Virus record (IMG/VR): IMGVR_UViG_3300046810_000041
Location: 1-64,000 of that record
Reading direction: 5' to 3' (one strand)
Source of the DNA: a virus
Lineage: Duplodnaviria; Heunggongvirae; Uroviricota; Caudoviricetes
DNA: 64,000 bases
A program made the position numbers and the translations under genes. Positions 20,658-33,643 of the stretch are shown one piece after another (the first letter of the stretch is position 1; each line of letters begins with the position of its first letter). The notes beneath the pieces are model-generated. The model worked only from the letters and a program-made list of their open reading frames with translations. It had not been told where the DNA came from and did no database searches.

Positions 20658-21497
20658 ATGAACCACGCAATCGAAACCGCAAAACTGAATCAAGTCCTGG
20701 CAACCTTCTTCGGTGTTCCCGAGCACAAGTGGCTGGCAGGTCCTGAAGGTGTGTGGGTTGAGACTCTCAAGCAGGAAATGGCTGAACTCGGCCTGATGCT
20801 GGCAGGTGGCACCATCACCAGTATCTTCACTGGCAAGCACGTCAACGACCTGGACTTCTACATCAAGGACGAGCGTGACCTCAAGAAGGCTCAAGACTTC
20901 TTCCTGCGTGTGTTCCACAACGGGAAGGACATGCCGTATATCTCCCGTAATGCGGCTACCTACAAGCGCAAGTCGGACAAGTCGGCAAAGGTCTGGACGA
21001 TTCAGCTGATCAGCCGTTTCACTGGCAACCCATGGCAGATCATGGGCTGGTTCGATTTCACCATCACCCAAGGTGTGTATGACTTTGGTGCTCGTTGGGA
21101 AATCATCGATGAAAGGAAAGTATTCATCGGAGACTTCTTCTTTGGTGACCGTTTCTTCCAGGACATTGGTAAGCGCAAGCTGGTTTACCTGGGCTCCTCG
21201 AAATATCCGATCTGCGCAATGCATCGGACCAAGAAGTACATTGCCAGGGGTTATGATTGCCCTGGTAGCACTATCATGCACATCGCTCTGTCAATCGTGC
21301 AACTGAAGATCGAGAACTATGGGCAGCTGAAAGATCAGCTCATGGGCATCGATACTTCTTATCTCCAGAACCTGCTGGGTGAAGATCGTTACAACGATGC
21401 TCTCCCGGTTGACTATGGTACTTTCCTCCAGGAAGCTCTGGATTCGATCAACGGCTTCGCTTATGAAGATCACATCGAGGAAGATGGCTCACTGTAA
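20658..21497 (+). CDS. Nucleotidyltransferase-fold protein (Pol-beta superfamily)
   Basis: GGTITSIFTGKHVNDLDFYI fits the minimal nucleotidyltransferase signature G[GS]x(9-13)DhD. Start trimmed to the ATG with the CATACAATG context. Confidence 0.5.
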   Translation: MNHAIETAKLNQVLATFFGVPEHKWLAGPEGVWVETLKQEMAELGLMLAGGTITSIFTGKHVNDLDFYIKDERDLKKAQDFFLRVFHNGKDMPYISRNAATYKRKSDKSAKVWTIQLISRFTGNPWQIMGWFDFTITQGVYDFGARWEIIDERKVFIGDFFFGDRFFQDIGKRKLVYLGSSKYPICAMHRTKKYIARGYDCPGSTIMHIALSIVQLKIENYGQLKDQLMGIDTSYLQNLLGEDRYNDALPVDYGTFLQEALDSINGFAYEDHIEEDGSL

Positions 21498-22460: not shown

Positions 22461-23297
22461 ATGAAAAATAAACCGCTCGTGATTTACCATGCAAGTTGCC
22501 TCGATGGTTTTGGTGCTGCATTCGCATTCTGGAAGGTGTTCGGCAAGAACGCTGATTATCATCCGGGTGTGTATGGAGACCCTTGCCCCGATGTAACTGA
22601 TCGTGATGTTTATATGTTAGACTTCGGCTACAAGCGTAATGTGGTTGAAGGCATGGTTAAGTTTGCCAAGAGTGTAACGCTGATCGATCACCATGTGACA
22701 ACGATTAATGCTCTGGCAGACGTTGATGGTATCGACCGCTATACCGATATTCATCAATCGGGTGCTGTTTTGGCCTGGAAGTACGCACAAGATGTTCTGT
22801 TCCTGGATGCTGAGATTCCGCAACTGATCAAGCATATTCAGGATCGTGACCTCTGGAATTTCGAATTACCTTTTACGAAGGAAGTTATCGCTGGTTTGTC
22901 CAGTTATGATTTCAACTTCATGGATTGGGATTCGATCATCTACGAAGTGGGTAATGAATTCCTGATCCAGGAAGGCAACACTATTCTCCGCTACCACAAG
23001 AAGAATCTGTTGCAAGTACTCGAAGAATGCACTCGCGAAATGTTCATCGTGGGTGAGCCTGTACCCTGCGCCTCTGTGCCATATTTCATGGCCTCAGATG
23101 CAGGTGAAATTCTGAATAAAGGCAAACCGTTCTCTGCAACGTATTATGACACCGACAAGCATCGTGTGTTCAGTCTTCGTTCTGAGAAAGGTAAGGGTTG
23201 GGATGTGTCTGCAGTTGCTGCTCAATACGGCGGCGGTGGTCACAAGCATGCAGCAGGGTTCATGGTAACCCGTCAGCATCACCTGGCTAAAGTCTAA
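22461..23297 (+). CDS. DHH-family phosphoesterase (NrnA/RecJ-like core)
   Basis: The four DHH-family motifs are present: YHASCLDGFGAA, LDFGY, LIDHH and YGGGGHKHAAG (GGGH). Confidence 0.7.
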   Translation: MKNKPLVIYHASCLDGFGAAFAFWKVFGKNADYHPGVYGDPCPDVTDRDVYMLDFGYKRNVVEGMVKFAKSVTLIDHHVTTINALADVDGIDRYTDIHQSGAVLAWKYAQDVLFLDAEIPQLIKHIQDRDLWNFELPFTKEVIAGLSSYDFNFMDWDSIIYEVGNEFLIQEGNTILRYHKKNLLQVLEECTREMFIVGEPVPCASVPYFMASDAGEILNKGKPFSATYYDTDKHRVFSLRSEKGKGWDVSAVAAQYGGGGHKHAAGFMVTRQHHLAKV

Positions 23298-23310: not shown

Positions 23311-23360
23311 GCGCTCCTTAATCGGGGCGCTTGGTGGTGTCTTCGGATGCCACCCTTTTT
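23311..23360 (+). terminator. Two tandem hairpins (gcgctcc-TTAATC-ggggcgc, then ggtggtgtc-UUCG-gatgccacc) followed by TTTTT
   Basis: Inverted repeats read directly. The second has a UUCG tetraloop and a T5 run. Lies directly after the DHH gene. Confidence 0.5.
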
Positions 23361-23387
23361 ATTCGTCAATTGTTAGGATACATTATG

Positions 23388-23606
23388 AGCACTACCAAAG
23401 AAGTCAAGTCGAAATCCCTGGGTGAACTGCAAGAAGCCTCCATCAAGGCAACTCTCCTGTTCCGCAAGGCTCAAGAAGACTTTGTCAAAGCGCAGGAAAA
23501 CCTCAAGGTCCGCCAGAACCAGCATGTTACGGCTATTCTTCAATTGAATGATGAATTCGCCAAGGTTCGCCGCGAGTGCGAGGTTGCCCCGCTGGGCAGT
23601 CTGTGA
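23388..23606 (+). CDS. Hypothetical protein (72 aa)
   Basis: ORF trimmed to the ATG that follows the terminator. Confidence 0.4.
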   Translation, partial: STTKEVKSKSLGELQEASIKATLLFRKAQEDFVKAQENLKVRQNQHVTAILQLNDEFAKVRRECEVAPLGSL

Positions 23607-23732
23607 GCCTGTGATGGGTTTCACCGACCTGTTCTTCCCGCGTGTCACCACGGACCAACCTGGTAGGCAGGTGACGGTGCGTGTGCTCAAGTCCCGGTCT
23701 GAGTTCAGCAGTCCGTACGGTCTGGTTCTCCG

Positions 23733-23753
23733 CCAACCCGTTAAATTAACCCT
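23733..23753 (+). promoter_or_regulatory. Putative phage-RNAP promoter, exact 21-mer (copy 3, tandem pair)
   Basis: Exact CCAACCCGTTAAATTAACCCT followed by GAAAGGGAACGA. It is the first of two copies 64 bp apart. Confidence 0.6.
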
Positions 23754-23796
23754 GAAAGGGAACGACGAGGAAGGTCAGCTGCGGTCTACCGCCAAT

Positions 23797-23817
23797 CCAA
23801 CCCGTTAAATTAACCCT
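23797..23817 (+). promoter_or_regulatory. Putative phage-RNAP promoter, exact 21-mer (copy 4, tandem pair)
   Basis: Exact 21-mer with the same downstream GAAAGGGAACGA. It is the second unit of a roughly 64-bp tandem duplication upstream of the gene at 24004. Confidence 0.6.
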
Positions 23818-24003
23818 GAAAGGGAACGAGGAAGTTCGGCTGGCTTGCTGTCTCCAGGACGCTATGTCTTTTGGACTTCCTCACCTGAACACGCTTTAAC
23901 CTATACTCCGTAAAACTGCGGGTTTATAGGCATCTTATATGAAGAAGGCTCATAAGAGTTGACTTCGAATTCCATTACTTTTAAATTGAAACGAGAATAC
24001 ATC

Positions 24004-24441
24004 ATGACGAACGCAACCGAAAACCAGATCATCGACAACGCAGAAGCAACCGCACCGACCGTCGCCAAGAAGAAAGGCGCTGTCGCCCTGCTGAAGAAGC
24101 GCGCACTGTTCGAAGCTCCGGATGGCACCATCTTCGAAACCCAGAAGGAAGCCACCGAGTACCTGCGCCGCCACCTGAAAGTGGATGCTGTCAATGCTGT
24201 CGCTGCACTGTTCACGGGCGTCGATGCTGAAGGCAACGAGCAGACTCTGGGCCAATTCCTGCTGTCGAACGAAGATGCAATCCGCAAGGCATACGATGCT
24301 GCCAAAGTGGAACGCGCTCCGGTCACGGAAGAAACCAAGGCCAAGATGCGTGCTGCACGCGCCAAGCTGAAAGGTGAAGTCGCTCCGGCAGACCAAACCC
24401 CGGCTGATGCAGAAACCCAAGGCGATGCTCAAGCTGAGTAA
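24004..24441 (+). CDS. Hypothetical acidic/Ala-Lys-rich protein (145 aa)
   Basis: ORF trimmed to the ATG with the GAGAATACATCATG context. Confidence 0.5.
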   Translation: MTNATENQIIDNAEATAPTVAKKKGAVALLKKRALFEAPDGTIFETQKEATEYLRRHLKVDAVNAVAALFTGVDAEGNEQTLGQFLLSNEDAIRKAYDAAKVERAPVTEETKAKMRAARAKLKGEVAPADQTPADAETQGDAQAE

Positions 24442-24820
24442 TCGCGATCTAAGGAAAGTAGTTCGACTATAGAGATACTATAGCGGATCGAAATCCTTGG
24501 ACTACCCTTTGTTGAGCTTGCACTCAACTCCCGGCCCTATATAGACCTGAAATCTGTATAGGGCCACCTTTCTAATCTAATCTTAGACGATAAATAGTTA
24601 TGATCTGGCCGTAGTGTATTGAGTACATTTGAATAGACGATAATTGGATGAGTGACGCCTTTAGGGCATTGATAAGATTAGAGTGCCAGAATGGGTCTGG
24701 TATTCGCTTTGTTAAATATAATTAATATGATTTGGCGTTAGATTAGGGGGCATCGACCGAGTGTGGAGCTAACGGGATGCCCTCATTAACTAACGTAGTA
24801 GGATTTACCTAACAGAAACC
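24442..24820 (+). repeat. Repeat-rich non-coding region: palindromes CTATAG...CTATAG and ggccctata...tatagggcc, direct repeat TAGACGATAA x2, several further hairpins
   Basis: No protein-like ORF is present. Multiple inverted and direct repeats are read directly. Confidence 0.4.
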
Positions 24821-24892
24821 GCCACAGGTAAATCTACAGTAGCTCTTTATTGAGTTGCCGTAGATTTACCTGTGGCCTTTTTTTTTTTTTTT
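24821..24892 (+). terminator. Strong intrinsic terminator: perfect 17-bp stem (gccacaggtaaatctac/gtagatttacctgtggc) followed by T15
   Basis: Perfect inverted repeat with a T-tract immediately after it. It closes the replication module. Confidence 0.7.
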
Positions 24893-24915
24893 CGTTCCCT
24901 TTGTAAATAGCTGAG

Positions 24916-25182
24916 ATGAATACACCGCAACCTATCCCTGCAATCGCTTCGGAAGCAGAAACCTACGATAGTGAATTTCTGCTCAATCGTGCAACTATGA
25001 TGAAACGCCGTAAAGGTTTCATTAGTGGTACCAAGATTAAGAATCCAGATGGCTCTTATACAGTCACCTGGGTTCCAGCATCACCTGCAATTAAGGTTGG
25101 TGGTAGTAAGAAGAGGATTCGTCCTCGGATCAGTAGTAATGCAGTTCGTAATACCTTCTCACCTGGTGCAAGCCAGCTGTAA
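24916..25182 (+). CDS. Hypothetical protein (88 aa), first gene of the AT-rich island
   Basis: ORF. Confidence 0.4.
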   Translation: MNTPQPIPAIASEAETYDSEFLLNRATMMKRRKGFISGTKIKNPDGSYTVTWVPASPAIKVGGSKKRIRPRISSNAVRNTFSPGASQL

Positions 25183-25187
25183 CACCT

Positions 25188-25209
25188 AGCGTCCCTTAAT
25201 TGGGGCGCT
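25188..25209 (+). promoter_or_regulatory. Hairpin agcgtccc-TTAATT-ggggcgct carrying the exact palindrome CCCTTAATTGGG
   Basis: The same 12-mer occurs in the loop of the 28832-28901 hairpin, with variants at 23316 and 78-89. Confidence 0.4.
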
Positions 25210-25226
25210 TAATTATTGAGGATGTA

Positions 25227-25424
25227 ATGCTTCCTATTAACGAAGTAAAGAAGTTTGAGTATAAGGGTGAGTTGTTTGACACTTATGCTGAAGCTGAAAG
25301 AGCAAAATACGTGGATGAAATTGAAACGTATCTTGGCCGGGAATGCAATCTTGAATCCTGGCAACTAGAAGGCGTGTTAGAGGCACTCTTAAAACAGTAC
25401 GATATCACGCTTAAGACTAAATAA
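25227..25424 (+). CDS. Hypothetical protein (65 aa)
   Basis: ORF trimmed to the ATG after the hairpin. Confidence 0.35.
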   Translation: MLPINEVKKFEYKGELFDTYAEAERAKYVDEIETYLGRECNLESWQLEGVLEALLKQYDITLKTK

Positions 25425-25439
25425 TCTTTAGGATAAATC

Positions 25440-25946
25440 ATGGAACACAACCAGCAACCGAAGCCTACGAACCACACCTCGCCAGTAACTTACAATCTCC
25501 GCCGTGAAGAACGTCACATGGTTGATATGATTGCTCAGGCGCAAGGGACTCCAGGTGGGCCATCGGGCAGTAAATCCCAAGTAGTAAGGGATGCTATTCG
25601 CTTCTATGCCATCGCGCATGACCAGCAAGCCCAAGGTCATCGTATGGTGTTCATCGGTGCAGACGGTAAGACAACGGAGATCAGTGAACTCTGGCACAAG
25701 CCAATCAGTAGTATGGCTGCTCCTGGATTCCCTCCCGCTCCAATCCCTGCTGTGGCGAATCAAGATGTACCCGCTGTACCTGCTGTGGTAGCACCTGCAA
25801 CTGCAGTAACGAGGGCTCCTGATGATGTTCAAGCATTGCTCAAGGCGATGTTGACGATCAACAAGGATCCTGGGTTTGAAACCATGGTTAACTCCATGGG
25901 TGTGGAAGTTCTCATCAACATCGGTAAGCAACTGCTGAATAAGTAA
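25440..25946 (+). CDS. Hypothetical protein, possible ribbon-helix-helix DNA-binding regulator
   Basis: KSQVVRDAIRFYAIAH resembles RHH/Arc-MetJ-type strand-helix segments. Weak evidence. Confidence 0.4.
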   Translation: MEHNQQPKPTNHTSPVTYNLRREERHMVDMIAQAQGTPGGPSGSKSQVVRDAIRFYAIAHDQQAQGHRMVFIGADGKTTEISELWHKPISSMAAPGFPPAPIPAVANQDVPAVPAVVAPATAVTRAPDDVQALLKAMLTINKDPGFETMVNSMGVEVLINIGKQLLNK

Positions 25947-25957
25947 TAGGATATAAA

Positions 25958-26752
25958 ATGGAACACAAGGAATATCGCCTCGTCTGCAACAATCGTCGTT
26001 ATATCATCAAGCTGGATCCTACCAAAGTTCTGGAAACGACTTCGGTAACGACTGATAGCTCAAGTAAGATGTCTCTGTCTTACTTCGGTCTGAACGGCAG
26101 TGTCACCAGCTCGTTCTCGACTAACGACGAGGAGAGCAAGAAAAGCGTCACGGCATTCTTGTGGCGTGAGTTGGCTCGTATGCATCATCGCGAGTTGGGT
26201 GAACGTCAGCCGGAACCTCCGCGTGTCGTTGGTATCCGCACCTTAACGAATACACGTCCTCGCCCGAATCCGAATGGTGGCCGTGCTTACGCACAAGCTA
26301 TTCTGGACAATGGTGGTTTGGAAGGTATGGCCAAGCTTGCTCACCAGGCTTTTGAGTTGCGCATCAAACAGCTGGAGCAAGAATTGGCTGAGAAGGATGA
26401 GCGTCTCAACAACGCAATGGCTGCAATTGATTCCCGCGATGTAACTATCCGGGCTCAACGTGCAGAGAACATGCGTCTGCAGCATGAGTACCGCGCTCAG
26501 GCCTTCAATGAAGTGAAGAAGGAATTTGAAGAGCGTGAGAAGAAGCTGCATGCATCGGTTGATACGTGCCACCAGAAGGTTCGTATGTTTGATGAAGCTT
26601 GCAAGCGTGCTATCCTGGGCTCCCGTGGTTTGGTTATCATCGATACCAGTGAACAGGCCGATGAAGAAACCAAGATCGGTAATGCCGGGACGGTCGCTGA
26701 AGTGCAAGATCGTCTGCTGCAAGCCTGCAATCGTCGTATGGGAGAATTCTGA
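25958..26752 (+). CDS. Hypothetical coiled-coil protein (264 aa)
   Basis: ORF with a long heptad-like region LRIKQLEQELAEKDERLNNAMAA... Confidence 0.5.
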   Translation: MEHKEYRLVCNNRRYIIKLDPTKVLETTSVTTDSSSKMSLSYFGLNGSVTSSFSTNDEESKKSVTAFLWRELARMHHRELGERQPEPPRVVGIRTLTNTRPRPNPNGGRAYAQAILDNGGLEGMAKLAHQAFELRIKQLEQELAEKDERLNNAMAAIDSRDVTIRAQRAENMRLQHEYRAQAFNEVKKEFEEREKKLHASVDTCHQKVRMFDEACKRAILGSRGLVIIDTSEQADEETKIGNAGTVAEVQDRLLQACNRRMGEF

Positions 26753-27147
26753 TGAGCAACTCTATCAAACCCTCTACGATTCTGATGCGTGCTTGTAACG
26801 CAATCGGTGTTGGTGAAGAGCATGGCATTCGTGTATTCTGCTGTAACGCGATCACGAAGGTTGTGTTTGACTATGTGCATGCGGGCAAGAAAGTCAAACC
26901 GCATTGGGATGAGCAGACGCATGAAGAGCTGGCGTACCTGCGTAATCTGTCCGAGTATAAAGCAGCTATGAAGTATCTGCTGATGTTCGCTCCGGATTGG
27001 GTTGTGGCGGACATGCTGACTTCCAACCCTCTGCATGAGAAGATGGAAGACGCTGTGTGGTTCCGTTATAGCACTCCTGGTTGTTTCGATGAGCGTATCA
27101 TTGCTCTGTCGATGGCTGCTTATATGGCCAAATCTGAAGGTAACTAA
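26752..27147 (+). CDS. Hypothetical protein (131 aa)
   Basis: ORF whose ATG overlaps the upstream stop. Confidence 0.45.
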   Translation: MSNSIKPSTILMRACNAIGVGEEHGIRVFCCNAITKVVFDYVHAGKKVKPHWDEQTHEELAYLRNLSEYKAAMKYLLMFAPDWVVADMLTSNPLHEKMEDAVWFRYSTPGCFDERIIALSMAAYMAKSEGN

Positions 27148-27265
27148 CCTGTAGTACTGTAGTCGAGGGCGCTTTCATAGGCCCTCAGTTGTTTAATTGT
27201 TTATTGTTTAACTGTTCGTATATTTCCGTTATTAGGATAAGCTAACATTATAAAAGGAAGTCATA

Positions 27266-27772
27266 ATGGCTCAATGGTCCATGCTACTAGATTCATCTCG
27301 TTCGCCAATGTATGGAGCAATAGTTGCACGCTCTGTACCTGAAGCAAAGCGAAAGTGTCTGATTCGGGGAGTGCCTGAGAACCTGATTCTAGAGTTTTAC
27401 CTGGGTATAAATCAGCCAACTGGTTTAGACTTTGCTAAATGGCTCGTCAAAGTTGATCAAGACTTTAATGGCGGGTTCATCCCAAAACATTTCACCTTCT
27501 ATGTACATTCGCAGAATGAAGAGGGGCGTGAAGCGATTAACACTTTGTTGAACGACTACCTGGAGGAACGTCGTAATAAATGGATTCAAGAGTTAGGCTT
27601 TGAAGATCGTAGAGACCGAAGGTCGAAAGAATATGTCCTCGAAGAGCGCCGCAAAAATCCTCCGAAGTTAGGTAGAAGGATTAAGCCAAGCATCTTATGG
27701 GGTAATCTTGATGGTTCAGACTTTGCTTTACACACTCGAAACAAACTGATTGAAGACAAAAGGAAACACTAA
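27266..27772 (+). CDS. Hypothetical protein (168 aa), AT-rich
   Basis: ORF. Confidence 0.45.
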   Translation: MAQWSMLLDSSRSPMYGAIVARSVPEAKRKCLIRGVPENLILEFYLGINQPTGLDFAKWLVKVDQDFNGGFIPKHFTFYVHSQNEEGREAINTLLNDYLEERRNKWIQELGFEDRRDRRSKEYVLEERRKNPPKLGRRIKPSILWGNLDGSDFALHTRNKLIEDKRKH

Positions 27773-27774
27773 GA

Positions 27775-27966
27775 ATGAAAAAGTTGTTTGTTACCACTTA
27801 TAACAAAACTACGGGTCACCTGAGCAGTAAAGTTGTTGAATTTCATACGAAGGCTGGTGCAGACGCGTTTATTAAATTGGCAGAGGAAAGGACTGTCAGT
27901 GATAACTATCCAATTGGTTATCAAGTAGTACCGATGTATGACGAAGAGCAGGGTTATTCATTTTAG
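27775..27966 (+). CDS. Hypothetical protein (63 aa)
   Basis: ORF. Confidence 0.35.
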   Translation: MKKLFVTTYNKTTGHLSSKVVEFHTKAGADAFIKLAEERTVSDNYPIGYQVVPMYDEEQGYSF

Positions 27967-27983
27967 GTATTAGGAGGTGTATC

Positions 27984-28355
27984 ATGAGTATCTTCGGTAG
28001 GGCAAAGGACAAGGTCGTAGAGAAATCATCTGATCTTGCCCGTCAAGCAGTAAGAGCAGTGAAGGGTCGTCCGAATGTTCAAACGAATCTCTCGGATGAA
28101 ACGGAGAAGGGTGGTAGAAAGAAGGTAGCACCGCAGTATCGGTCTGGGGCGAAAACTTCTCAGAATCAACAGAGGTCTAGCTCCAAGAACGCTTCTCCGA
28201 AAGGCTATAGTGAAAGGCTTCCGAAAGACTTGCCTCCTCCGGTATCACCTAATGATCCTCCCACAAAGGAACTAAGGGTGATACCAAGGCAGTTCTCGAA
28301 AGTGATGGATAGAATCACTCCTAAAGCCATACGGGATAGAAAGGAACATGATTAG
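27984..28355 (+). CDS. Hypothetical basic, low-complexity protein (123 aa)
   Basis: ORF with S/K/P/Q-rich composition. Confidence 0.35.
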   Translation: MSIFGRAKDKVVEKSSDLARQAVRAVKGRPNVQTNLSDETEKGGRKKVAPQYRSGAKTSQNQQRSSSKNASPKGYSERLPKDLPPPVSPNDPPTKELRVIPRQFSKVMDRITPKAIRDRKEHD

Positions 28356-28489
28356 TTTTTCGTTGCTAATTGTGGTAAGTAAATGCTTGAGAATAAAAAT
28401 CTGAAAGAGACAGAAGGTAGAGCACTTCCTTAATAATTCTACCAAGAGTTATTAATCAGTGCTCTACCTTCATCAACCCGAGACTTAAA

Positions 28490-28819
28490 ATGAAAAATAA
28501 ATTGTATCGAGTAGTAACTGGTAAGCCGTTTGTGGATAAATTCTACCATGCATTCTTCAAGGGCACTTTGGTGAAAACTAAAGATGAACCTGTGTATGGT
28601 ATGGTGTATGTTGTTGGAGAACATCCGCCTCATAGTGGTACAGCCTTAGGGCAGACTGTGAGGGAGAAAGATCTTGTGCTCGTATGTGAGTTCAACGATT
28701 CAAGAAACAAACGAGAAGGTAGTTTTAAGAAGCGTCGTGAGAAGAAAGCCCGAAAGGGCATCGTGGTAGTAGATATTGAAGCAGTACCAAATGCTGTACT
28801 CATGAAGTTAGCAGCATAA
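28490..28819 (+). CDS. Hypothetical protein (109 aa)
   Basis: ORF. Confidence 0.45.
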   Translation: MKNKLYRVVTGKPFVDKFYHAFFKGTLVKTKDEPVYGMVYVVGEHPPHSGTALGQTVREKDLVLVCEFNDSRNKREGSFKKRREKKARKGIVVVDIEAVPNAVLMKLAA

Positions 28820-28831
28820 GATTTCTCCTTT

Positions 28832-28916
28832 GGCGGCCCTAGGCTCCCTCTCTAAACATTCCCTTAATTGGGTTTGTTTAGAGAGGGAGCCTAGGGCCGC
28901 CTATTTTTTTTTTTTT
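28832..28916 (+). terminator. Very strong terminator: perfect 27-bp stem (28832-58/28875-901), loop containing CCCTTAATTGGG, then T13
   Basis: Perfect 27-bp inverted repeat ggcggccctaggctccctctctaaaca/tgtttagagagggagcctagggccgcc, followed by TAT and then T13. Confidence 0.7.
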
Positions 28917-29171
28917 GTTCTCTCAACAATAATGCTCTACGGTTACGCCTAATCCAGAGTATTGCCAGGAGCAAAGCTTGTGTCGGTCTAGGACGAGGGC
29001 TCAGACGCCTCACGAACGCTGTGCCTCGGACCAACCTGCTAGGCCTCCGGTCCAACCTGTCACCGAGAAACGGGCCAGCTAGCCAGGGCAACCGAGGGTC
29101 AATATAGAGCAATAGATCTTAGTTGTAGTTGTATAATAAAAGATAGAAAATCCCAATACGACTACCCTCGT

Positions 29172-29192
29172 CCAACCCGTTAAATTAACCCT
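29172..29192 (+). promoter_or_regulatory. Putative phage-RNAP promoter, exact 21-mer (copy 5) with a leader homologous to the region downstream of copy 1
   Basis: Exact 21-mer. The downstream sequence CTAAGCGCCGCCTCCCCTAGAGGAAC... parallels 3943-3975 CTAAGGCCGCCCTCCCCAGAGGGAAT... Confidence 0.6.
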
Positions 29193-29356
29193 AAGCGCCG
29201 CCTCCCCTAGAGGAACCTAAGAGGGTAATCCCTGGCTATTCTTCCCGGCCTATCTTATAGAGGAACCCCAGGGAGGCCTAAGGGATGACTAACTGTATTA
29301 TTAGTTATTATTAAACCTATTAAGAGAGAATCCTGAAGGATGACTCTAAAGATATC

Positions 29357-29731
29357 ATGGAACAAATAACCTTTAATGTTGTATCAAAGCCGAAATATGG
29401 TAAAGCCTTTAAATGGAACGGAGATAACTCTCTAGAGTTTCATACAGAATTAGCGAAAGCGTACTCTAGCAGATTTATGCTGACAGAGACTGAATCACTG
29501 ATATACCGAGAGAAGATCCTCCGAGTACGTGATTTCAAAATGGAATCCGAAGTAGTTGTTCACAAGAACGACTTCTTTATGGTCACAGACACAAATAGCT
29601 GTTGTTTGAGGCCTCATGAATTTGAAAGGTATTGGACTGTCAATGCATTTCATGATGTAGATTTTAAAGAAATATCTACGAAAGCAATTCCTGCTATTGC
29701 CTTTGTGAGGGCTCCGAGTGAGTTCTCCTGA
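29357..29731 (+). CDS. Hypothetical protein (124 aa)
   Basis: ORF, first gene after promoter copy 5. Confidence 0.45.
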   Translation: MEQITFNVVSKPKYGKAFKWNGDNSLEFHTELAKAYSSRFMLTETESLIYREKILRVRDFKMESEVVVHKNDFFMVTDTNSCCLRPHEFERYWTVNAFHDVDFKEISTKAIPAIAFVRAPSEFS

Positions 29732-29809
29732 GAGGTTTGGCAGGGTTTTTGAGTGGCCTAAGTGGTTGATTTTCTTGGGGTCGCTCTGATTTTCAACCCG
29801 GAACTTAAC

Positions 29810-30307
29810 ATGGATAATATAGAACAACCCAAAGCCAAGGGAGGTCGTCCCAAAGGCTCCAAGAACTTACGATCAAAAGAGGCATCGAGAGTATTAGCAC
29901 AATTAGGCTTTGACCCTATTGCCATGCTTGTGCGTACTCATGATGATGCACTCCGAAAGATTGCTATTGAAGAGCGTAAACAGAAGCCCTCTATGATTGC
30001 AATCGCTCAGTTGCTTGCTATTCAACAGAAAGCATGTGCTGAACTTATGAGGTATGGTTACGCACGTACCACAGAGACTCAGGAAGTCCTCACAAGAGAA
30101 CTACCTCCATTGCAAGTTACACTGACTCCTAAAGGATGGAAGCCTGGTGACCCTGTGCCTGGTCAATCTGGTGATCCTAATGAAGATGCTGTGTATGACC
30201 CTAGTGCTGCACCCGATGAAGAATATCCTGAGTATGATGGCCGCCCTGATCCTCTTGAGAATCTCCCTCCTGTGTTGAAGCACGATGACTTTGATGTAGT
30301 AGATTAA
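29810..30307 (+). CDS. Putative terminase small subunit
   Basis: N-terminal KAKGGRPKGSKN basic motif followed by helical segments, typical of TerS N-termini. The assignment rests on this N-terminal motif alone. Start trimmed to the ATG at 29810. Confidence 0.45.
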   Translation: MDNIEQPKAKGGRPKGSKNLRSKEASRVLAQLGFDPIAMLVRTHDDALRKIAIEERKQKPSMIAIAQLLAIQQKACAELMRYGYARTTETQEVLTRELPPLQVTLTPKGWKPGDPVPGQSGDPNEDAVYDPSAAPDEEYPEYDGRPDPLENLPPVLKHDDFDVVD

Positions 30308-30318
30308 TCGAGATAATC

Positions 30319-30510
30319 ATGTTTGATGTAACTGTGAAGAATAAACGCAAGCTGCAACCTCCTAAAGGTCGTAAGGCTGATTACCAAAACGATCGTGAAA
30401 AGAAGATCAAGCGTAATCCCAAAGATAAGCCAGAGCATGCCCGAGGAATTATTCCTGAAGGTTGGCCTAAGAAGCAACCTGCGTGGATTCTTCAGGAAGA
30501 AGGCGAATAA
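30319..30510 (+). CDS. Hypothetical basic protein (63 aa)
   Basis: ORF. Confidence 0.3.
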   Translation: MFDVTVKNKRKLQPPKGRKADYQNDREKKIKRNPKDKPEHARGIIPEGWPKKQPAWILQEEGE

Positions 30511-30511
30511 A

Positions 30512-30781
30512 ATGATCAATGCATACTGTGTTGGTAAAGAAGTGATGCCTGACTGGCTGTTTGAATTGATGAATGACAATAAAGTCGTTCTTACAATTCC
30601 CTTCCGAGGTATTGGTGTATCATCGGCATCTGTGCAAACTACTAAAGATGGCATCCAGGTAGCACAACGAGGGGATTACATTAAGCAATACCTTTGTGGT
30701 ACTCTGACGGTAGAGCGTGTAGGTAGTGTCAAGGTTAATGCTAGTGCCTTTGCTGTGCATAGCTCTCTGAATGGAATCTAA
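30512..30781 (+). CDS. Hypothetical protein (89 aa)
   Basis: ORF trimmed to the ATG following the upstream stop. Confidence 0.4.
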   Translation: MINAYCVGKEVMPDWLFELMNDNKVVLTIPFRGIGVSSASVQTTKDGIQVAQRGDYIKQYLCGTLTVERVGSVKVNASAFAVHSSLNGI

Positions 30782-30782
30782 A

Positions 30783-31187
30783 ATGATCGATAAGATTAAA
30801 GATATGCTGGGCCTCAATGCAGTAACGGTCCAGAATAACATCGTAGCAGGTGATCTGGTAGTAGGTGATCTTGTGAAATCTGTGCGAGGTCCTTGCTACC
30901 CTAACGGAGACCATATTGTACGTACTAAAGAAGCTGTTCGTGAGCACCTCAACAAGCCGAACATTTGCATTGTCGCTCGTAATATTAATATTGCGTATGA
31001 CTATGCTAAGCGCCTTGGTCTTGACCCTAAGTGGCGGTTTGTACGGTCTGCAATGTATCTTCGGGGTCTTGCAAGTGGAACTCCTATCTACGTCGTTGGT
31101 GAAAGGCGTGATATCGAGGATCTTGATGAGATAACCCGCGAGTGTCGTATCAGGAATTACACCCTGATGTTCATCAACGATCGCTAA
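30783..31187 (+). CDS. Hypothetical protein (134 aa)
   Basis: ORF; the stop abuts the first tRNA. Confidence 0.45.
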   Translation: MIDKIKDMLGLNAVTVQNNIVAGDLVVGDLVKSVRGPCYPNGDHIVRTKEAVREHLNKPNICIVARNINIAYDYAKRLGLDPKWRFVRSAMYLRGLASGTPIYVVGERRDIEDLDEITRECRIRNYTLMFINDR

Positions 31188-31192
31188 GAGAT

Positions 31193-31269
31193 ACCACTAT
31201 AGCTTAACTGGATAGAGCAAGAGTCTTCTACACTCCTGGTTGCAGGTTCGAGTCCTGCTAGTGGTGCCA
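31193..31269 (+). tRNA. tRNA-Arg (anticodon TCT)
   Basis: Cloverleaf folded by hand. 7-bp acceptor accacta/tagtggt, D-arm gctt..gagc, anticodon loop cTTCTAc, T-arm gcagg-ttcgagt-cctgc, encoded CCA. Confidence 0.7.
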
Positions 31270-31284
31270 AAAATTTTGGCTGGT

Positions 31285-31305
31285 CCAACCCGTTAGATTA
31301 ACCCA
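31285..31305 (+). promoter_or_regulatory. Variant of the 21-mer promoter motif (CCAACCCGTTAGATTAACCCA, 2 mismatches)
   Basis: Lies between tRNA-Arg and the Trp-like tRNA. Confidence 0.3.
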
Positions 31306-31309
31306 CAAC

Positions 31310-31395
31310 GTGCAGGTGGTAGAGCGGTCGAATACAATGGTCTCCAAAACCATCATCGAAAGATCACCTAGGTTCGAATCCTAGTCTGCATGCCA
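31310..31395 (+). tRNA. tRNA-like gene, anticodon CCA (Trp), with an unusually long 14-nt variable arm
   Basis: Acceptor gtgcagg/tctgcat, perfect anticodon stem atggt/accat with loop cTCCAaa, extra arm atc-gaaa-gat, T-arm ctagg-ttcgaat-cctag, CCA. 86 nt. Confidence 0.5.
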
Positions 31396-31440
31396 TTATC
31401 AACTCGTCATATTCTACGAGTCCCAAAAAGAATAACCCGG

Positions 31441-31516
31441 TGTCTTGTAGCTCAGCTGGTAGAGCAGATGACTGTTAATCATTTGGTCCTTGGTTCGATT
31501 CCAAGCTAGACAGCCA
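31441..31516 (+). tRNA. tRNA-Asn (anticodon GTT)
   Basis: tgtcttg...ctagaca acceptor with one mismatch, gctcagctggtagagc D-arm, anticodon loop ctGTTaa, T-arm cttgg-ttcgatt-ccaag, CCA. Confidence 0.7.
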
Positions 31517-31593
31517 CGATCAATATCCCCGTCGTACTCGAACGAACCGACTTAGAAGAATGCTAAGTGGGGATGCCAATTTAAAGGATCTGT

Positions 31594-31770
31594 ATGATAC
31601 AAGAAAAGAAGCACTTTATGAAGACGTGCAAGGCTGGCGGCGGTAGAGGCTTCCATTGTACTTGTTGCTATCCAGGTCCTCGTAGAAAAGATCGGAAGTT
31701 ATTTATGAGGAATGCACGTCGTAAATACAACCGAGAAATTAGCAAGTTAGTCCAAAGCGATTTAAACTAA
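31594..31770 (+). CDS. Small basic Cys-rich protein (58 aa; HCTCCYPGP)
   Basis: Short ORF between tRNA genes. Not in the track. Confidence 0.25.
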   Translation: MIQEKKHFMKTCKAGGGRGFHCTCCYPGPRRKDRKLFMRNARRKYNREISKLVQSDLN

Positions 31771-31774
31771 CAGT

Positions 31775-31850
31775 TGCGGGGTAGCTCAGCTGGTAGAGCA
31801 GTAGACTTTGACTCTATTGGTCGTTGGTTCGAATCCAACTCCCGCTGCCA
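31775..31850 (+). tRNA. tRNA-Gln (anticodon TTG)
   Basis: gcggggtagctcagctggtagagc 5' half, anticodon stem gtaga/tctat with loop cTTTGac, T-arm gttgg-ttcgaat-ccaac, CCA. Positions 1-72 are a U-U mismatch. Confidence 0.65.
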
Positions 31851-31951
31851 AGCCAGTCCTAGTGTACATACGTAAGTCCGCTCTTGAGGTGGTACGTCTA
31901 GTTGTAAGTAACTGTACAAGTGAAGGGAACACACTTTAAAAACCACACACT

Positions 31952-32029
31952 CTTTTCGTAGCTCAGTCAGTGTAGAGCACTTGGTTTGGGACCAAGGGGT
32001 CGTAGGTTCGAATCCTACCGGGAAGACCA
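31952..32029 (+). tRNA. tRNA-Pro (anticodon TGG)
   Basis: Acceptor cttttcg/cgggaag with G-U pairs, anticodon stem cttgg/ccaag with loop tTTGGga, T-arm gtagg-ttcgaat-cctac, CCA. Confidence 0.7.
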
Positions 32030-32135
32030 AACATGTAACACGTACCGAATGGACCTCGAAGGAGGCTTGTATTGGTGTATAGTCAAGGTGAAGATCTTAC
32101 TATGCCGTCACTCTACGAAACAGAGTAAGAACATT

Positions 32136-32212
32136 AGCGGTGTAATTCAGTGGTCAGAAGAGGAGCCTCATAAGCTCTGCGTCATTGGTTCGAATCCAAT
32201 CATCCGCTACCA
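32136..32212 (+). tRNA. tRNA-Met-like (anticodon CAT) with imperfect acceptor stem
   Basis: Anticodon stem ggagc/gctct with loop cTCATaa and T-arm attgg-ttcgaat-ccaat are clear. The acceptor pairs for only about 5 of 7 positions, so the boundaries are approximate. Confidence 0.5.
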
Positions 32213-32261
32213 AACATGGTCTGGAAACGACCCGGCAAGTGAAATGCTTGCAACAAACAAT

Positions 32262-32354
32262 GTATGTCAGCTGAATATTGGCTTAAGTCAGCCCGGTCTG
32301 TAACACCGGAGTCTCCTAGAGAGGGTTGGGGTTCGATTCCCTGGACATACACCA
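32262..32354 (+). tRNA. tRNA-Tyr (anticodon GTA), type II with long variable arm
   Basis: Perfect 7-bp acceptor gtatgtc/gacatac, D-stem ctga/tcag, anticodon stem ccggt/accgg with loop ctGTAac, variable arm tctc-cta-gaga, T-loop ttcgatt, CCA. Confidence 0.65.
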
Positions 32355-32754
32355 TCTACGCTTAGCACAGAACCGCAAGGCCAGCGGGCCACTGTGGAAG
32401 CTGATTGTGATAATTCACATGACTTTGCAGATTAGAAAGAAATCTGACCGATACCCATACCATCCATGGTGGAAGTGGTATTTGGAGGTGGCTCTACAAA
32501 CTAGTCTCATTCGGAAACTCCTATTAGCACGACGAACGGAAAGCCGAGATAGTTACGTGCGAAGCGTAGCGATGAGTATTAGAGAGCTCCCTGCCAAATA
32601 GTACTTCCTGTTGTTTAACTAAATGAAAGCTTCAAATGAGCTCTAAAACAATCCGTCGTCACCCGAAACCAATGCCTCAACCTGTATTCCGTCCTCGCCC
32701 TAAGTTTCTGGCCTGGGCTGTACAGAACATCTGCCGCACCTGGAGTAACATCAA

Positions 32755-32934: not shown

Positions 32935-32936
32935 TC

Positions 32937-33098: not shown

Positions 33099-33104
33099 CA
33101 ATAA

Positions 33105-33180: not shown

Positions 33181-33190
33181 AACAATCAGT

Positions 33191-33267: not shown

Positions 33268-33273
33268 AACAAC

Positions 33274-33642: not shown

Positions 33643-33643
33643 C

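What the first reader, a model, noticed from the sequence alone, without database searches (positions are those of the whole stretch)
24893..28831. AT-rich accessory island of nine small genes insulated between two very strong terminators
The segment between the T15 terminator (24821-24892) and the 27-bp-stem terminator (28832-28916) is visibly lower in GC than the flanking replication and structural modules. It encodes only small unknowns: a possible RHH regulator at 25440, a 264-aa coiled-coil protein, and low-complexity basic proteins. It has no 21-mer promoter inside. This is the signature of a moron or accessory cassette (host-takeover, anti-defence or superinfection functions) with its own transcriptional control.
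Basis: partly seen in the sequence, partly recalled or inferred. Interest (0 to 1): 0.5.

Follow-up and report, generated by a model that had tools for sequence, protein, structure and literature searches.

The report
Terminator-bounded accessory gene block in phage
Nine small, mostly unique phage genes sit between two very strong transcription stop signals in a spot where related phages keep fast-changing accessory genes, including known immune-evasion genes. The block is not unusually AT-rich and has no promoter of its own, so it is an ordinary kind of feature with new contents.

Summary
Two very strong hairpin+T-run terminators (24821-24892, 28832-28916) enclose nine tightly packed plus-strand genes, and no copy of the phage's 21-mer promoter lies between them. 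The compositional part fails. The block's GC is 45.7% against 46.6% for the window (30th percentile), and codon usage is indistinguishable from the rest.

The phage carries a T7-type RNA polymerase and is distantly related to roseophage DSS3_VP1 (Naomviridae). The layout tandem promoters, 145-aa gene, terminator, promoterless block, terminator, late promoter, small-terminase-like gene is conserved in the closest relative found. That relative shares only gp1, gp3 and gp5 (24-39% identity). A second relative shares gp5-gp9. More distant relatives fill the slot with unrelated genes, including Acb3 (anti-CBASS) and Tad3 (anti-Thoeris).

Only one island protein has a family: a divergent cREC domain that has lost three of four conserved acidic residues. 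All nine proteins are singletons among 15 billion proteins.

Best reading: this is the lineage-specific filling of a clade-wide accessory bay, expressed by terminator read-through. It is probably host-takeover or anti-defence cargo. It is not a recently acquired, self-transcribed moron. It is a new member of a known kind, of modest interest.

The parts
23733..23817 (+). Tandem phage-RNAP promoters (21-mers at 23733-23753 and 23797-23817). They are the nearest upstream transcription starts that can feed the block.
   Evidence: Exact copies of CCAACCCGTTAAATTAACCCT, with 0 expected by chance. A tandem pair is also found upstream of the homologous gene in the closest relative and in L049.
24004..24441 (+). 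Conserved 145-aa gene of unknown function. With the promoters and T2 it forms a strongly expressed unit directly upstream of the block.
   Evidence: Homologues lie in the same position in REL1 (59% identity), L013, L018, L047, L048, L059 and L062. No Pfam or PHROG family matches.
24442..24820 (+). 379-nt untranslated, strongly structured stretch between the 145-aa gene and T2.
   Evidence: RNA fold -121.1 kcal/mol, z = -4.9 against shuffles. No Rfam family. No similar DNA in any relative.
24821..24892 (+). Terminator T2: long hairpin plus T15. It forms the 5' boundary of the block and is the proposed attenuator.
   Evidence: -41.3 kcal/mol. One of only three T-runs of 8 or more in the window. 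The closest relative has an equivalent hairpin+T15 at the same position. Weaker hairpin+T6-7 sites occur in L013, L018 and L062.
24916..25182 (+). gp1, 88 aa, basic (pI 10.7).
   Evidence: ORF and independent gene call. Homologue in REL1 at 39% identity over 38 aa. No family.
25188..25209 (+). 8-bp hairpin with CCCTTAATTGGG at its apex and no T-run. It lies between gp1 and gp2.
   Evidence: -15.2 kcal/mol. The same 12-mer forms the apex of T3. There are 2 copies against 0.15 expected.
25227..25424 (+). gp2, 65 aa, acidic (pI 4.6). An alternative TTG start lies at 25200.
   Evidence: GAGGA ribosome-binding site before the ATG. Gene call of 65 aa. No homologue anywhere.
25440..25946 (+). gp3, 168 aa. 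The N-terminus has a ribbon-helix-helix-like pattern, so it is a candidate DNA-binding regulator.
   Evidence: The motif TYNLR...G..SKSxxxRxAIxxY is conserved with the REL1 homologue (27% identity, E 8e-15). Weak phrog_4986 match. No Pfam RHH hit. AF2 pLDDT 37.5. ParD matched at only E = 1.7.
25958..26752 (+). gp4, 264 aa, central coiled-coil-like segment (about residues 125-215). An ORFan.
   Evidence: Only a self hit in 5.8 billion clusters. Sub-threshold hits to coiled-coil families, all in residues 125-227. Only a weak positional analogue in REL1 (E 0.006 in a tiny database).
26752..27147 (+). gp5, 131 aa, predicted all-helical. It is the only island gene shared with both relatives.
   Evidence: 37-39% identity to L046:83-469. 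24% identity to REL1 (E 3e-6). No family and no PDB hit. AF2 pLDDT 42.3.
27165..27211 (+). 6-bp GC hairpin followed by a T-rich tract, forming a weak terminator-like element in the 118-nt gap before gp6.
   Evidence: Sequence and fold. It coincides with the step in GC from 50% to 42%.
27266..27772 (+). gp6, 168 aa. Divergent cREC (cyclic-phosphate-processing receiver) domain in residues 1-105, followed by a basic C-terminal extension carrying a conserved WGNLxGxDFxxHT motif.
   Evidence: PF20274 at 46.6 bits against a cutoff of 27. phrog_1479. 344 relatives, but only 2 are close. D10S, D43E, H44F and D45Y replace residues that are 92-97% conserved among the 151 aligned cREC sequences (query plus the 150 best hits). 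The C-terminal motif is conserved within the 3-member subclade.
27775..27966 (+). gp7, 63 aa.
   Evidence: 40% identical homologue in the same position in L046. No family.
27984..28355 (+). gp8, 123 aa, basic (pI 10.5), low complexity.
   Evidence: The C-terminal 56 aa are 50% identical to L046:1655-1936. No family.
28413..28471 (+). Perfect 14-bp inverted repeat (GAAGGTAGAGCACT / AGTGCTCTACCTTC) in the 134-nt gap before gp9, with no T-run.
   Evidence: Sequence. One arm resembles a tRNA D-arm. No tRNA or Rfam call.
28490..28819 (+). gp9, 109 aa, basic (pI 9.9).
   Evidence: 40-44% identical to L046:2033-2473. No family and no PDB hit.
28832..28916 (+). Terminator T3: 27+3-bp hairpin plus T13. 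It is the clade-conserved end of the middle transcription unit.
   Evidence: -68.7 kcal/mol. Equivalents lie just upstream of the late promoter and TerS-like gene in L006/REL1, L013, L018, L021, L028 and L046, with stem changes that preserve pairing.
29172..29192 (+). Late phage promoter, which restarts transcription toward the TerS-like gene, the tRNAs and the structural genes.
   Evidence: Exact 21-mer. The same element follows the T3 equivalent in L046, L013, L018, L017, L010, L030 and REL1 (as a variant).

Best explanation
The interval is the lineage-specific filling of a clade-wide accessory gene bay in a lytic phage that has a T7-type RNA polymerase and is related to the Naomviridae.

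The bay lies at the distal end of the middle (replication-phase) transcription region. It follows a conserved, strongly promoted 145-aa gene and precedes a conserved junction made of a giant terminator, the late promoter and the small-terminase-like gene.

The block has no promoter. Its first gene begins 23 nt after the T15 run. It must therefore be transcribed by polymerases that start upstream (at 23733/23797 and earlier) and read through terminator T2. T2 would act as an attenuator that sets a low dose of the block relative to the 145-aa gene. T3 then stops everything before the late promoter takes over. The anatomy is shown; the read-through step is inferred.

The contents are soluble, rapidly evolving, dispensable-looking proteins. 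gp1, gp3 (a possible ribbon-helix-helix DNA binder) and gp5 form an older 'head' shared with the closest relative. gp5-gp9 are shared with a second relative. gp2 and gp4 are unique.

gp6 is a cREC-fold protein whose acidic pocket is degenerate and which has gained a basic tail. It more likely binds a cyclic-phosphate ligand or RNA end than hydrolyses it (inferred).

By position and by analogy with relatives, whose bays hold Acb3 and Tad3, the cargo most likely serves host takeover or counter-defence (inferred, not shown).
For: Anatomy: terminators, gene packing and absence of promoters.

The same architecture occurs in the closest relative, REL1 (IMGVR_UViG_3300023063_000002; TerL 79%, MCP 76%, portal 69% identical). 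Its order is tandem promoters 8311/8382, 145-aa homologue (59%), hairpin+T15 at 9426-9440, first ORF 11 nt later, homologues of gp1, gp3 and gp5 in order, about 16 unrelated ORFs, hairpin+T16 at 16947-16962, a variant promoter at 17110, then the TerS-like gene. No 21-mer with up to 4 mismatches lies inside its block.

L046 keeps gp5-cREC-gp7-gp8-gp9-T3-promoter in order, with three extra genes.

The stretch upstream of the TerS-like gene is hypervariable across 19 relatives; only the TerS-like gene and TerL recur. That slot contains Acb3, Tad3, a dCMP deaminase, a GNAT, HNH endonucleases, SPFH proteins and a cyclase.

The product of window 20658-21497, 3.4 kb upstream on the conserved backbone, carries a precomputed Gad2 family hit.

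Composition and codon usage match the rest of the genome.

cREC data. The published prediction for cREC is Iyer et al. 2021, PMC7824862.
Against: No expression data exist, so read-through at T2 is inferred. A T15 run with a hairpin of about 24 bp could terminate almost completely. That would leave the block nearly silent, or dependent on a promoter type I cannot recognise, such as a second phage promoter class or a non-consensus host promoter.

No island protein matches any known anti-defence family (Pfam, PADLOC, PHROGs, NCBIfam).

gp6 has none of the partners that define cREC contexts (RNA ligase, PNK, NAD/ADPr enzymes) within the 64-kb window.

Comparative coverage is thin. Only two relatives share any island gene. 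For most of the 40 IMG/VR relatives only 10 kb upstream of TerL was examined.
Confidence: 0.65

Rival explanations
1. One reading: a recently acquired, compositionally foreign moron or accessory cassette with its own promoter-terminator control.
For: It is flanked by strong terminators. The contents are ORFans. The internal GC mosaic of 42/50/42% has steps at small hairpins, which could reflect piecemeal acquisition. L046 has two extra genes enclosed between an internal terminator and T3.
Against: Overall GC and codon usage do not differ from the genome. No phage 21-mer and no + strand sigma-70-like site lies inside the block, and the first ATG is 23 nt after the T-run. The bounded block and several of its genes are shared with relatives at 24-65% identity, which implies long residence.
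Confidence: 0.12
2. An RNA-repair or tRNA-protection module. In this model gp6 (cREC) and its neighbours process 2',3'-cyclic phosphate ends made by host anticodon nucleases, working with the nine to ten tRNA genes 2.4 kb downstream.
For: cREC is predicted to process cyclic phosphates and is linked to RNA ligases (PMC7824862). In Ochrobactrum phage vB_OspM_OC the homologue lies between a polynucleotide kinase and RNA ligase 1. The gp6 tail is basic and could bind RNA. A tRNA cluster lies nearby.
Against: No RNA ligase, PNK, 2H, Macro or NADAR domain was found among the other window ORFs. The 311-aa ligase-like protein matches DNA-ligase domains. Three of the four conserved acidic residues are replaced (S10, E43, Y45), and only 3 of the 151 aligned cREC sequences carry this state.
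Confidence: 0.12
3. Fast-evolving but functionally core proteins, for example DNA-condensing or packaging-accessory proteins or internal virion proteins, expressed just before the packaging genes.
For: The block lies immediately upstream of the late promoter and the TerS-like gene. gp1, gp8 and gp9 and the gp6 tail are strongly basic. gp1, gp3 and gp5 are retained in REL1.
Against: No homologue was found in five more distant relatives whose slots are fully covered (L013, L018, L028, L047, L048/L007), nor in DSS3_VP1. The block is separated from the late operon by the strongest terminator in the window.
Confidence: 0.08

Closest known systems
Hypervariable accessory regions and anti-defence gene hotspots of lytic phages (for example the T4 hyperplastic regions and the clustering of anti-CRISPR and anti-defence genes; named from my own knowledge)
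   Same: A fixed genomic slot between conserved modules. It is filled with small, fast-evolving, mostly unknown genes that differ between relatives. Relatives carry bona fide anti-defence families there (Acb3, Tad3).
   Different: Here the slot is framed by two exceptionally strong terminators and lacks any promoter, and this framing is conserved in the closest relative. No island gene itself matches a known anti-defence family.
Morons of lambdoid phages (Juhala/Hendrix definition: an inserted gene with its own promoter and terminator, often of deviant composition; from my own knowledge)
   Same: Extra genes sit between conserved neighbours. Terminators and hairpins follow gene groups. Genes are present or absent between relatives.
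   Different: There is no promoter of its own, no deviant composition, a multigene block rather than single genes, and the host is a lytic T7-type phage rather than a temperate one.
T7 T-phi terminator and read-through expression of downstream genes (from my own knowledge)
   Same: A hairpin+U-run terminator follows a heavily transcribed gene. The downstream genes on the same strand have no promoter directly after the terminator.
   Different: In T7 the downstream genes are essential structural genes with additional promoters further on. Here the downstream genes are accessory, and a second and stronger terminator closes the unit 4 kb later.
cREC (cyclic-phosphate-processing receiver) domain proteins, Pfam PF20274 (Iyer et al. 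2021, Viruses 13:63, PMC7824862)
   Same: gp6 residues 6-96 match above the gathering score. The HSxN motif and the overall receiver-like pattern are retained. The protein is phage-encoded, as in the jumbo phages where the family was defined.
   Different: The DD...DHD acidic signature is reduced to D-S...E-F-Y. A C-terminal extension carrying a conserved WGNLxGxDFxxHT motif is added (about 60 aa in gp6 and P0002, about 27 aa in P0004). There is no RNA-ligase or NAD-processing neighbour, and the phage genome is 78.5 kb rather than jumbo-sized.
Roseophage DSS3_VP1 (Naomviridae, Noahvirus)
   Same: Collinear core genes: RNAP 34%, DNAP 37%, primase-helicase 46%, TerL 63%, portal 44%, MCP 41% identical. 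It also has a long stretch of unrelated small genes between the nucleotide-metabolism genes and the terminase.
   Different: No island gene is shared. VP1 fills the equivalent region with other genes, including RNA ligase 2, NAMPT and glutathionylspermidine synthase.

Membership tests
Moron (promoter-gene-terminator insertion) | Own promoter upstream of the inserted gene(s) | tested here: not met
   No 21-mer with up to 4 mismatches and no + strand sigma-70-like site in 24893-28831. The first ATG is 23 nt after the T-run.
Moron (promoter-gene-terminator insertion) | Own terminator downstream | tested here: met
   T3 at 28832-28916 (-68.7 kcal/mol, T13) plus small internal hairpins.
Moron (promoter-gene-terminator insertion) | Base composition or codon usage deviating from the surrounding genome | tested here: not met
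   GC 45.7% against 46.6% (30th percentile). RSCU distance within the null distribution (58% of blocks at least as distant).
Moron (promoter-gene-terminator insertion) | Present in one genome and absent between the same flanking genes in a relative | tested here: met
   gp2, gp4 and gp6-gp9 are absent from REL1 between the same terminators. gp1-gp9 are absent from the slots of L013, L018, L028, L047 and L048.
cREC domain, Pfam PF20274 | Sequence match above the curated gathering score | tested here: met
   46.6 bits against 27, residues 6-96. 344 relatives at E <= 1e-3.
cREC domain, Pfam PF20274 | Conserved aspartates of the receiver-type acidic pocket (DD after beta-1, DxD after beta-3), on which the catalytic prediction rests | tested here: not met
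   gp6 retains D9, but D10 is S, D43 is E and D45 is Y. In the 151 aligned sequences (query plus the 150 best hits) these positions are D in 140/145, 145/149 and 137/149. Only gp6, P0002 and P0004 carry this state.
cREC domain, Pfam PF20274 | Gene-neighbourhood link to RNA ligase/PNK or NAD+/ADP-ribose-processing genes | tested here: not met
   None found in the 64-kb window. About 14.5 kb of the 78.5-kb genome lies outside the window. The link does hold for the homologue in phage vB_OspM_OC.
Ribbon-helix-helix (CopG/Arc/MetJ) regulators, for gp3 | Match to an RHH family model or to a solved RHH protein | tested here: inconclusive
   No Pfam hit at E <= 0.1. A profile of gp3 plus the REL1 homologue hits the antitoxin ParD at only E = 1.7. 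The beta-strand, helix, G-x-S, helix pattern is conserved between the two homologues.
Ribbon-helix-helix (CopG/Arc/MetJ) regulators, for gp3 | Beta-alpha-alpha fold forming an intertwined dimer | tested here: inconclusive
   Single-sequence AlphaFold2 model has pLDDT 37.5. It places helices at 22-36 and 45-64 but is not usable.
Intrinsic / class I (T7-type) terminator, for T2 and T3 | Stable GC-containing hairpin immediately followed by a U-run on the transcribed strand | tested here: met
   -41.3 kcal/mol with T15 and -68.7 kcal/mol with T13, both on the coding strand.
Intrinsic / class I (T7-type) terminator, for T2 and T3 | Measured termination, and its efficiency, for the phage and host polymerases | not testable with these tools
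   Requires Term-seq or in vitro transcription.
Phage anti-defence gene hotspot | Known anti-defence genes at the same locus in relatives or adjacent in this genome | tested here: met
   Acb3 at L017:5119-5943 (4e-37), Tad3 at L036:5702-6310 (2.7e-23), and a Gad2 family hit on the product of window 20658-21497.
Phage anti-defence gene hotspot | The genes in question inhibit a defence system | not testable with these tools
   No island protein matches Pfam anti-defence families or PADLOC models. Functional assays are needed.

The most novel reading that the evidence does not exclude
The conserved layout of a strong promoter pair, one gene, a terminator, a promoterless block and a giant terminator may be a dedicated accessory bay. 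In this reading, terminator read-through doses a changing arsenal of potentially toxic counter-defence proteins. Within it, gp6 would represent a new pseudo-enzymatic branch of the cREC fold, with the acidic pocket lost and a WGNLxGxDFxxHT basic tail gained. It would act as a binder or sponge for a cyclic-phosphate immune signal or for cleaved tRNA ends rather than as a phosphoesterase.
Probability: 0.15. Interest if true: 0.6.

Novelty: new member of a known kind. Interest (0 to 1): 0.3.

Why it matters
Practical value. This clade contains at least 40 uncultured relatives in IMG/VR. It keeps a positionally fixed slot that is easy to find: it lies between a conserved 145-aa gene and the junction of giant terminator, late promoter and TerS-like gene. 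Relatives hold Acb3 and Tad3 there. The slot can therefore be used as a guilt-by-location source of new anti-defence candidates. The nine ORFans here and the roughly 140 ORFs catalogued from relatives are such candidates.

The degenerate cREC subclade gives a concrete test of whether cREC proteins are enzymes or binders.

Beyond that, the feature is typical phage genome plasticity. It does not by itself challenge current understanding.

Tried and rejected
1. Megablast of the island against 50,697 phage records found no match.

2. Single-protein scans of IMG/VR with the DHH phosphoesterase and with gp6 found nothing. Relatives were reached only with a TerL alignment and with the promoter 21-mer.

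3. A concatenation of the eight non-cREC proteins as one query to the search for homologous proteins returned nothing, not even self hits. I treat this as a tool artefact from a saturated candidate list, not as evidence. It cost one of three searches, so gp1-3, gp5 and gp7-9 were never individually searched in that database. Exact-cluster look-up did show that all nine are singletons.

4. I first concluded that none of the 40 relatives has any island homologue. That was an artefact of the 10-kb flank limit. Fetching the missing 2.3 kb of the closest relative revealed the T2 equivalent and homologues of gp1, gp3 and gp5. The conclusion was revised.

5. AlphaFold2 on gp3 and gp5 without alignments gave pLDDT 37.5 and 42.3, so no fold searches were run.

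6. PDB sequence searches with gp3, gp5, gp9 and a gp3 profile gave nothing significant.

7. PADLOC and NCBIfam gave only sub-threshold coiled-coil noise.

8. Rfam returned only spurious sub-threshold miRNA-hairpin matches on the terminators.

9. CTGTAGTAC, considered as a possible operator shared with the early region, is not enriched (16 matches against 11 expected).

10. An 11-mer search for a second promoter class shared between island gaps and other intergenic regions found nothing convincing.

11. IMG/VR scans with gp5 and gp9 alignments, and bacterial-genome scans with the cREC subclade and with gp3, found no relatives.

12. I initially read the 311-aa protein at 19291 as a possible RNA ligase partner for cREC. 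It matches DNA-ligase domains.

Full report
WHAT THE WINDOW IS.

All long ORFs lie on the + strand. PHROG and Pfam scans identify these genes:
- a T7-type single-subunit RNA polymerase (430-2706)
- a family-A DNA polymerase (5495-7384)
- a 5'-3' exonuclease (9896-10852)
- a primase-helicase (11890-13602)
- ribonucleotide reductase (14235-16937)
- a DNA-ligase-like protein (19291-20226)
- a DHH phosphoesterase (22461-23297)

Downstream of the finding lie a small-terminase-like gene (29762-30307), nine to ten tRNA genes (31193-33348), TerL (34294-35622), the portal (35953-37596) and the major capsid protein (43387-44568).

The nearest cultured relative is roseophage DSS3_VP1 (Naomviridae). Its core genes are collinear but only 26-63% identical. 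The same phage is present in public data as one 78,554-bp JGI contig and as fragments of one Logan assembly, SRR26076577.

CHECKING THE OBSERVATION.

The two terminators are real and extreme. T2 (24821-24892) folds at -41.3 kcal/mol and ends in T15. T3 (28832-28916) has a 27+3-bp stem, folds at -68.7 kcal/mol and ends in T13. Together with T1 (60-127, T17), they are the only T-runs of 8 or more in 64 kb, and all are on the coding strand.

Nine ORFs fill the interval (gp1-gp9; 88, 65, 168, 264, 131, 168, 63, 123 and 109 aa). An independent public gene call gives the same nine. Seven have AGGA/GGAG ribosome-binding sites. The genes are packed with gaps of -1 to 44 nt, apart from gaps of 118 nt (before gp6) and 134 nt (before gp9).

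It has five exact copies (3922, 7775, 23733, 23797, 29172) and one 2-mismatch copy (31285), against 0 expected by chance. None lies in the interval, even allowing 4 mismatches. The consensus scan finds no + strand sigma-70-like site there either.

The compositional claim fails:
- GC is 45.67% against 46.64% for the window, the 30th percentile of equal-length windows.
- The downstream 5 kb is lower still (45.3%).
- The interval is a 42.2 / 50.4 / 42.0% mosaic.
- GC3 (0.454 against 0.478) and synonymous codon usage are unremarkable. The RSCU distance is 0.0745, and 58% of equal-sized blocks are at least as distant.
- The run of small genes extends from 23331 to 34285, so gene size does not single out the interval.

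WHAT THE GENES ARE.

Pfam, PHROGs, NCBIfam and PADLOC give one solid assignment. gp6 (27266-27772) matches PF20274 cREC_REC at 46.6 bits (cutoff 27) and phrog_1479.

cREC was defined computationally by Iyer et al. 2021 (PMC7824862). It is a divergent receiver domain linked to RNA ligases and NAD+/ADP-ribose enzymes. It is predicted to hydrolyse cADPR or 2',3'-cyclic phosphates through its conserved aspartates. I reproduced that context for one homologue: in Ochrobactrum phage vB_OspM_OC the homologue lies between a polynucleotide kinase and RNA ligase 1.

gp6 departs from the family in three ways:
1. Acidic residues. An exhaustive HMMER search found 344 relatives. In an alignment of the query with the best 150, the acidic positions are D in 144/145, 140/145, 145/149 and 137/149 sequences. 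gp6 has D, S, E and Y at these positions, and F in place of the usual H. Only gp6 and its two nearest relatives share this state: P0002 (65% identical) and P0004 (61%).
2. C-terminal extension. The three share a basic C-terminal extension with a conserved WGNLxGxDFxxHT motif.
3. Neighbourhood. No RNA ligase, PNK, Macro, NADAR or 2H domain was found in the other ORFs of the window.

Family membership by sequence is therefore met. The features that underpin the catalytic prediction and the RNA-repair context are not.

The N-terminal pattern TSPxTYNLR...G...SKSxxxRxAIxxY is conserved in its only homologue. It resembles the strand, helix, G-x-S, helix signature of CopG/ParD-type proteins as I know it. 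However, no Pfam RHH model matches, a two-sequence profile reaches ParD at only E = 1.7, and the AlphaFold2 model is unusable (pLDDT 37.5).

gp4 has a coiled-coil-like centre, with sub-threshold hits to Fib_alpha, JetC/MukB-like and Cbp1 in residues 125-227. It has no homologue in 5.8 billion protein clusters.

None of the nine has a convincing transmembrane segment. gp9 has a borderline hydrophobic C-terminus (maximum KD19 1.62). All nine are singletons at 90% identity among about 15 billion proteins.

RELATIVES AND THE SLOT.

A TerL alignment retrieved 40 IMG/VR contigs, 56-79% identical apart from one 24% outlier. Clustering all ORFs in the 10 kb upstream of TerL in 19 of them shows that only TerL and the TerS-like gene recur. 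Nearly everything else is a singleton.

The promoter 21-mer is itself conserved in several of these phages. Using it as a probe recovered the other side of the slot. The conserved backbone is: DNA-ligase-like gene, Gad2-like gene, DHH phosphoesterase, promoter(s), 145-aa gene, variable genes, giant hairpin+T-run, late promoter, TerS-like gene.

T3 equivalents lie directly upstream of the late promoter in L006, L013, L018, L021, L028 and L046. Some have the same CCCTTAATTGGG apex, and their stem changes preserve pairing.

Three relatives are informative.

(a) REL1 (IMGVR_UViG_3300023063_000002) is the closest: TerL 79%, MCP 76%, portal 69%, RNR 70% identical. I first missed its 5' slot because of the 10-kb flank limit. 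After fetching the missing 2.3 kb it reads as follows:
- tandem promoters (8311, 8382)
- the 145-aa homologue (59% identical)
- hairpin+T15 (9426-9440, about -39 kcal/mol)
- the first ORF 11 nt later
- homologues of gp1 (39% over 38 aa), gp3 (27%, E 8e-15) and gp5 (24%, E 3e-6), in order
- about 16 unrelated ORFs
- hairpin+T16 (16947-16962)
- a variant promoter (17110)
- the TerS-like gene

No promoter-like 21-mer lies inside this block.

(b) L046 is a 4.2-kb JGI contig found through P0002. It reads as follows:
- gp5 (37%)
- an extra 117-aa gene
- cREC (65%)
- gp7 (40%)
- gp8 C-terminus (50%)
- gp9 (40%)
- an internal terminator
- two extra genes
- T3
- tandem promoters
- a homologue of the gene at 29357

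(c) Five more distant relatives have fully covered slots (L013, L018, L028, L047, L048+L007). None contains a homologue of any island gene by tblastn at 1e-3 or by phmmer at E <= 1. Three relatives (L013, L018 and the short contig L062) nevertheless have a weaker hairpin+T6-7 after the 145-aa gene.

So the double-terminator, promoterless frame is conserved in this sub-lineage, while the contents are mosaic. gp1, gp3 and gp5 form an older head. gp5-gp9 are shared with L046. gp2 and gp4 are unique. Shared island genes are 24-65% identical, whereas backbone genes are 47-79% identical, so the island genes evolve faster.

WHAT FILLS THE SLOT ELSEWHERE.

I scanned 144 ORFs: 141 lying within 6.5 kb upstream of the TerS-like gene in 17 relatives, plus the three extra L046 genes. 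Few have Pfam families, but these do:
- Acb3, a CBASS inhibitor (L017:5119-5943, 4e-37)
- Tad3, a type I Thoeris inhibitor (L036:5702-6310, 2.7e-23)
- a GNAT acetyltransferase (L036)
- a dCMP deaminase (L018)
- an adenylate/guanylate cyclase domain (L010)
- an outer-membrane beta-barrel protein and SPFH/Band_7 proteins
- three HNH endonucleases

Acb3 is described in the literature as anti-CBASS protein 3 (bioRxiv 10.1101/2025.06.06.658234).

In the window itself, the product of 20658-21497 carries a precomputed Gad2 family hit. To my knowledge Gad2 is an anti-Gabija family. This supports reading the slot as an accessory or counter-defence bay. It does not show that any of the nine genes has such a function.

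HOW IT MOST LIKELY WORKS.

Shown:
- The block has no recognisable promoter.
- Its first ATG is 23 nt after the T15 run (11 nt in REL1).
- The nearest transcription starts are the tandem promoters 1.1 kb upstream, which drive the conserved 145-aa gene.
- A second, stronger terminator closes the block 256 nt before the late promoter.

Inferred: the block is transcribed by read-through of T2. T2 therefore acts as an attenuator, giving low, middle-phase expression relative to the 145-aa gene. T3 insulates the late operon. This is the same logic as read-through at T7 T-phi (my own knowledge). Alternatively, T2 may stop only host polymerase, in which case the phage polymerase would pass it efficiently. 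In both cases the block depends on upstream promoters.

The small hairpins coincide with the GC steps and gaps. They lie at 25188-25209, at 27165-27186 (followed by a T-rich tract) and at 28413-28471. They may be processing or stability elements, or scars of piecemeal gene exchange. This is speculative.

The cargo is most likely host-takeover or counter-defence proteins. gp3 may act as a DNA-binding regulator. gp6 more likely acts as a binder than as an enzyme.

COMPARISON AND VERDICT.

The feature works like the hypervariable accessory regions and anti-defence hotspots known in many phages. It fails two of the four defining features of a moron: its own promoter and deviant composition. It is a new instance of a known kind. 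Its reusable results are a well-defined, conserved regulatory frame and an unusual cREC variant. Interest is modest (0.3).

The most novel reading still open has two parts. The frame may be a selected dosing device for toxic counter-defence cargo. gp6 may be a pseudo-enzymatic cREC sponge. I give this about 0.15 probability.

Noticed in passing
window 24442-24820: A 379-nt untranslated stretch lies between the 145-aa gene and T2. It folds far better than shuffled controls (-121.1 kcal/mol, z = -4.9). It has no Rfam family and no similar DNA in any relative. It could be a structured 3' UTR or a non-coding RNA co-transcribed with the highly expressed gene.
   Followed up: partly
window 20658-21497: The 279-aa product carries a precomputed Pfam Gad2 hit (PF26128; to my knowledge an anti-Gabija family). 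It is conserved at 28-53% identity in several relatives, in the backbone 3.4 kb upstream of the block. My Pfam copy did not report it.
   Followed up: partly
window 25193-25204 and 28861-28872; L006 ~6100; L028 ~8680: The palindrome CCCTTAATTGGG forms the apex of two hairpins in the window (2 copies against 0.15 expected). It, or CCTTAATTGG, recurs at the apex of the T3-equivalent terminators of relatives. L046 has CCCTTATATGGG. It may be a protein- or RNase-recognition loop.
   Followed up: partly
window 23733-24441: Two promoters 64 nt apart drive a conserved 145-aa Ala/Lys/Glu-rich protein of unknown function. JGI labels it YicC-like, which I did not verify. Tandem promoters also precede its homologue in REL1 and L049. 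It is probably one of the most highly expressed middle genes.
   Followed up: partly
window 60-170: A third giant terminator (stem 60-103, T17 at 111-127) is followed directly by an extended -10 host-type promoter (TGTTATAAT, about 160-168). This lies ahead of a small ORF and the RNA polymerase gene, and probably marks the host-RNAP early start.
   Followed up: no
window 37700-42619: The 1639-aa virion-protein-like ORF has a precomputed Phage_Mu_F hit and a 'faint' hit to PF00940 (T7-type RNA_pol). If real, it would suggest a virion-associated polymerase domain reminiscent of N4. Not tested.
   Followed up: no
window 31285-31305 and 32137-32208: A 2-mismatch variant of the phage promoter sits between tRNA-Arg and tRNA-Trp. 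Rfam calls a tenth tRNA at 32137-32208 that ARAGORN does not report.
   Followed up: no
window 28413-28471: A perfect 14-bp inverted repeat with a 31-nt loop lies in the gap before gp9. One arm (GGTAGAGCACT) resembles a tRNA D-arm. There is no T-run, and no tRNA or Rfam call.
   Followed up: partly
L046 2480-3335: In the relative that shares gp5-gp9, a strong terminator (hairpin+T13 at 2539-2551) follows the gp9 homologue. Two extra genes (140 and 113 aa) are enclosed between it and T3. This suggests that terminator-delimited units are the pieces being gained and lost.
   Followed up: partly
window 7846-8637; L007, L012, L031 slots: An SPFH/Band_7 protein is encoded in the window's replication region behind its own promoter (7775). 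The same family appears inside the variable slot of three relatives, so the gene occupies different positions within the clade.
   Followed up: no
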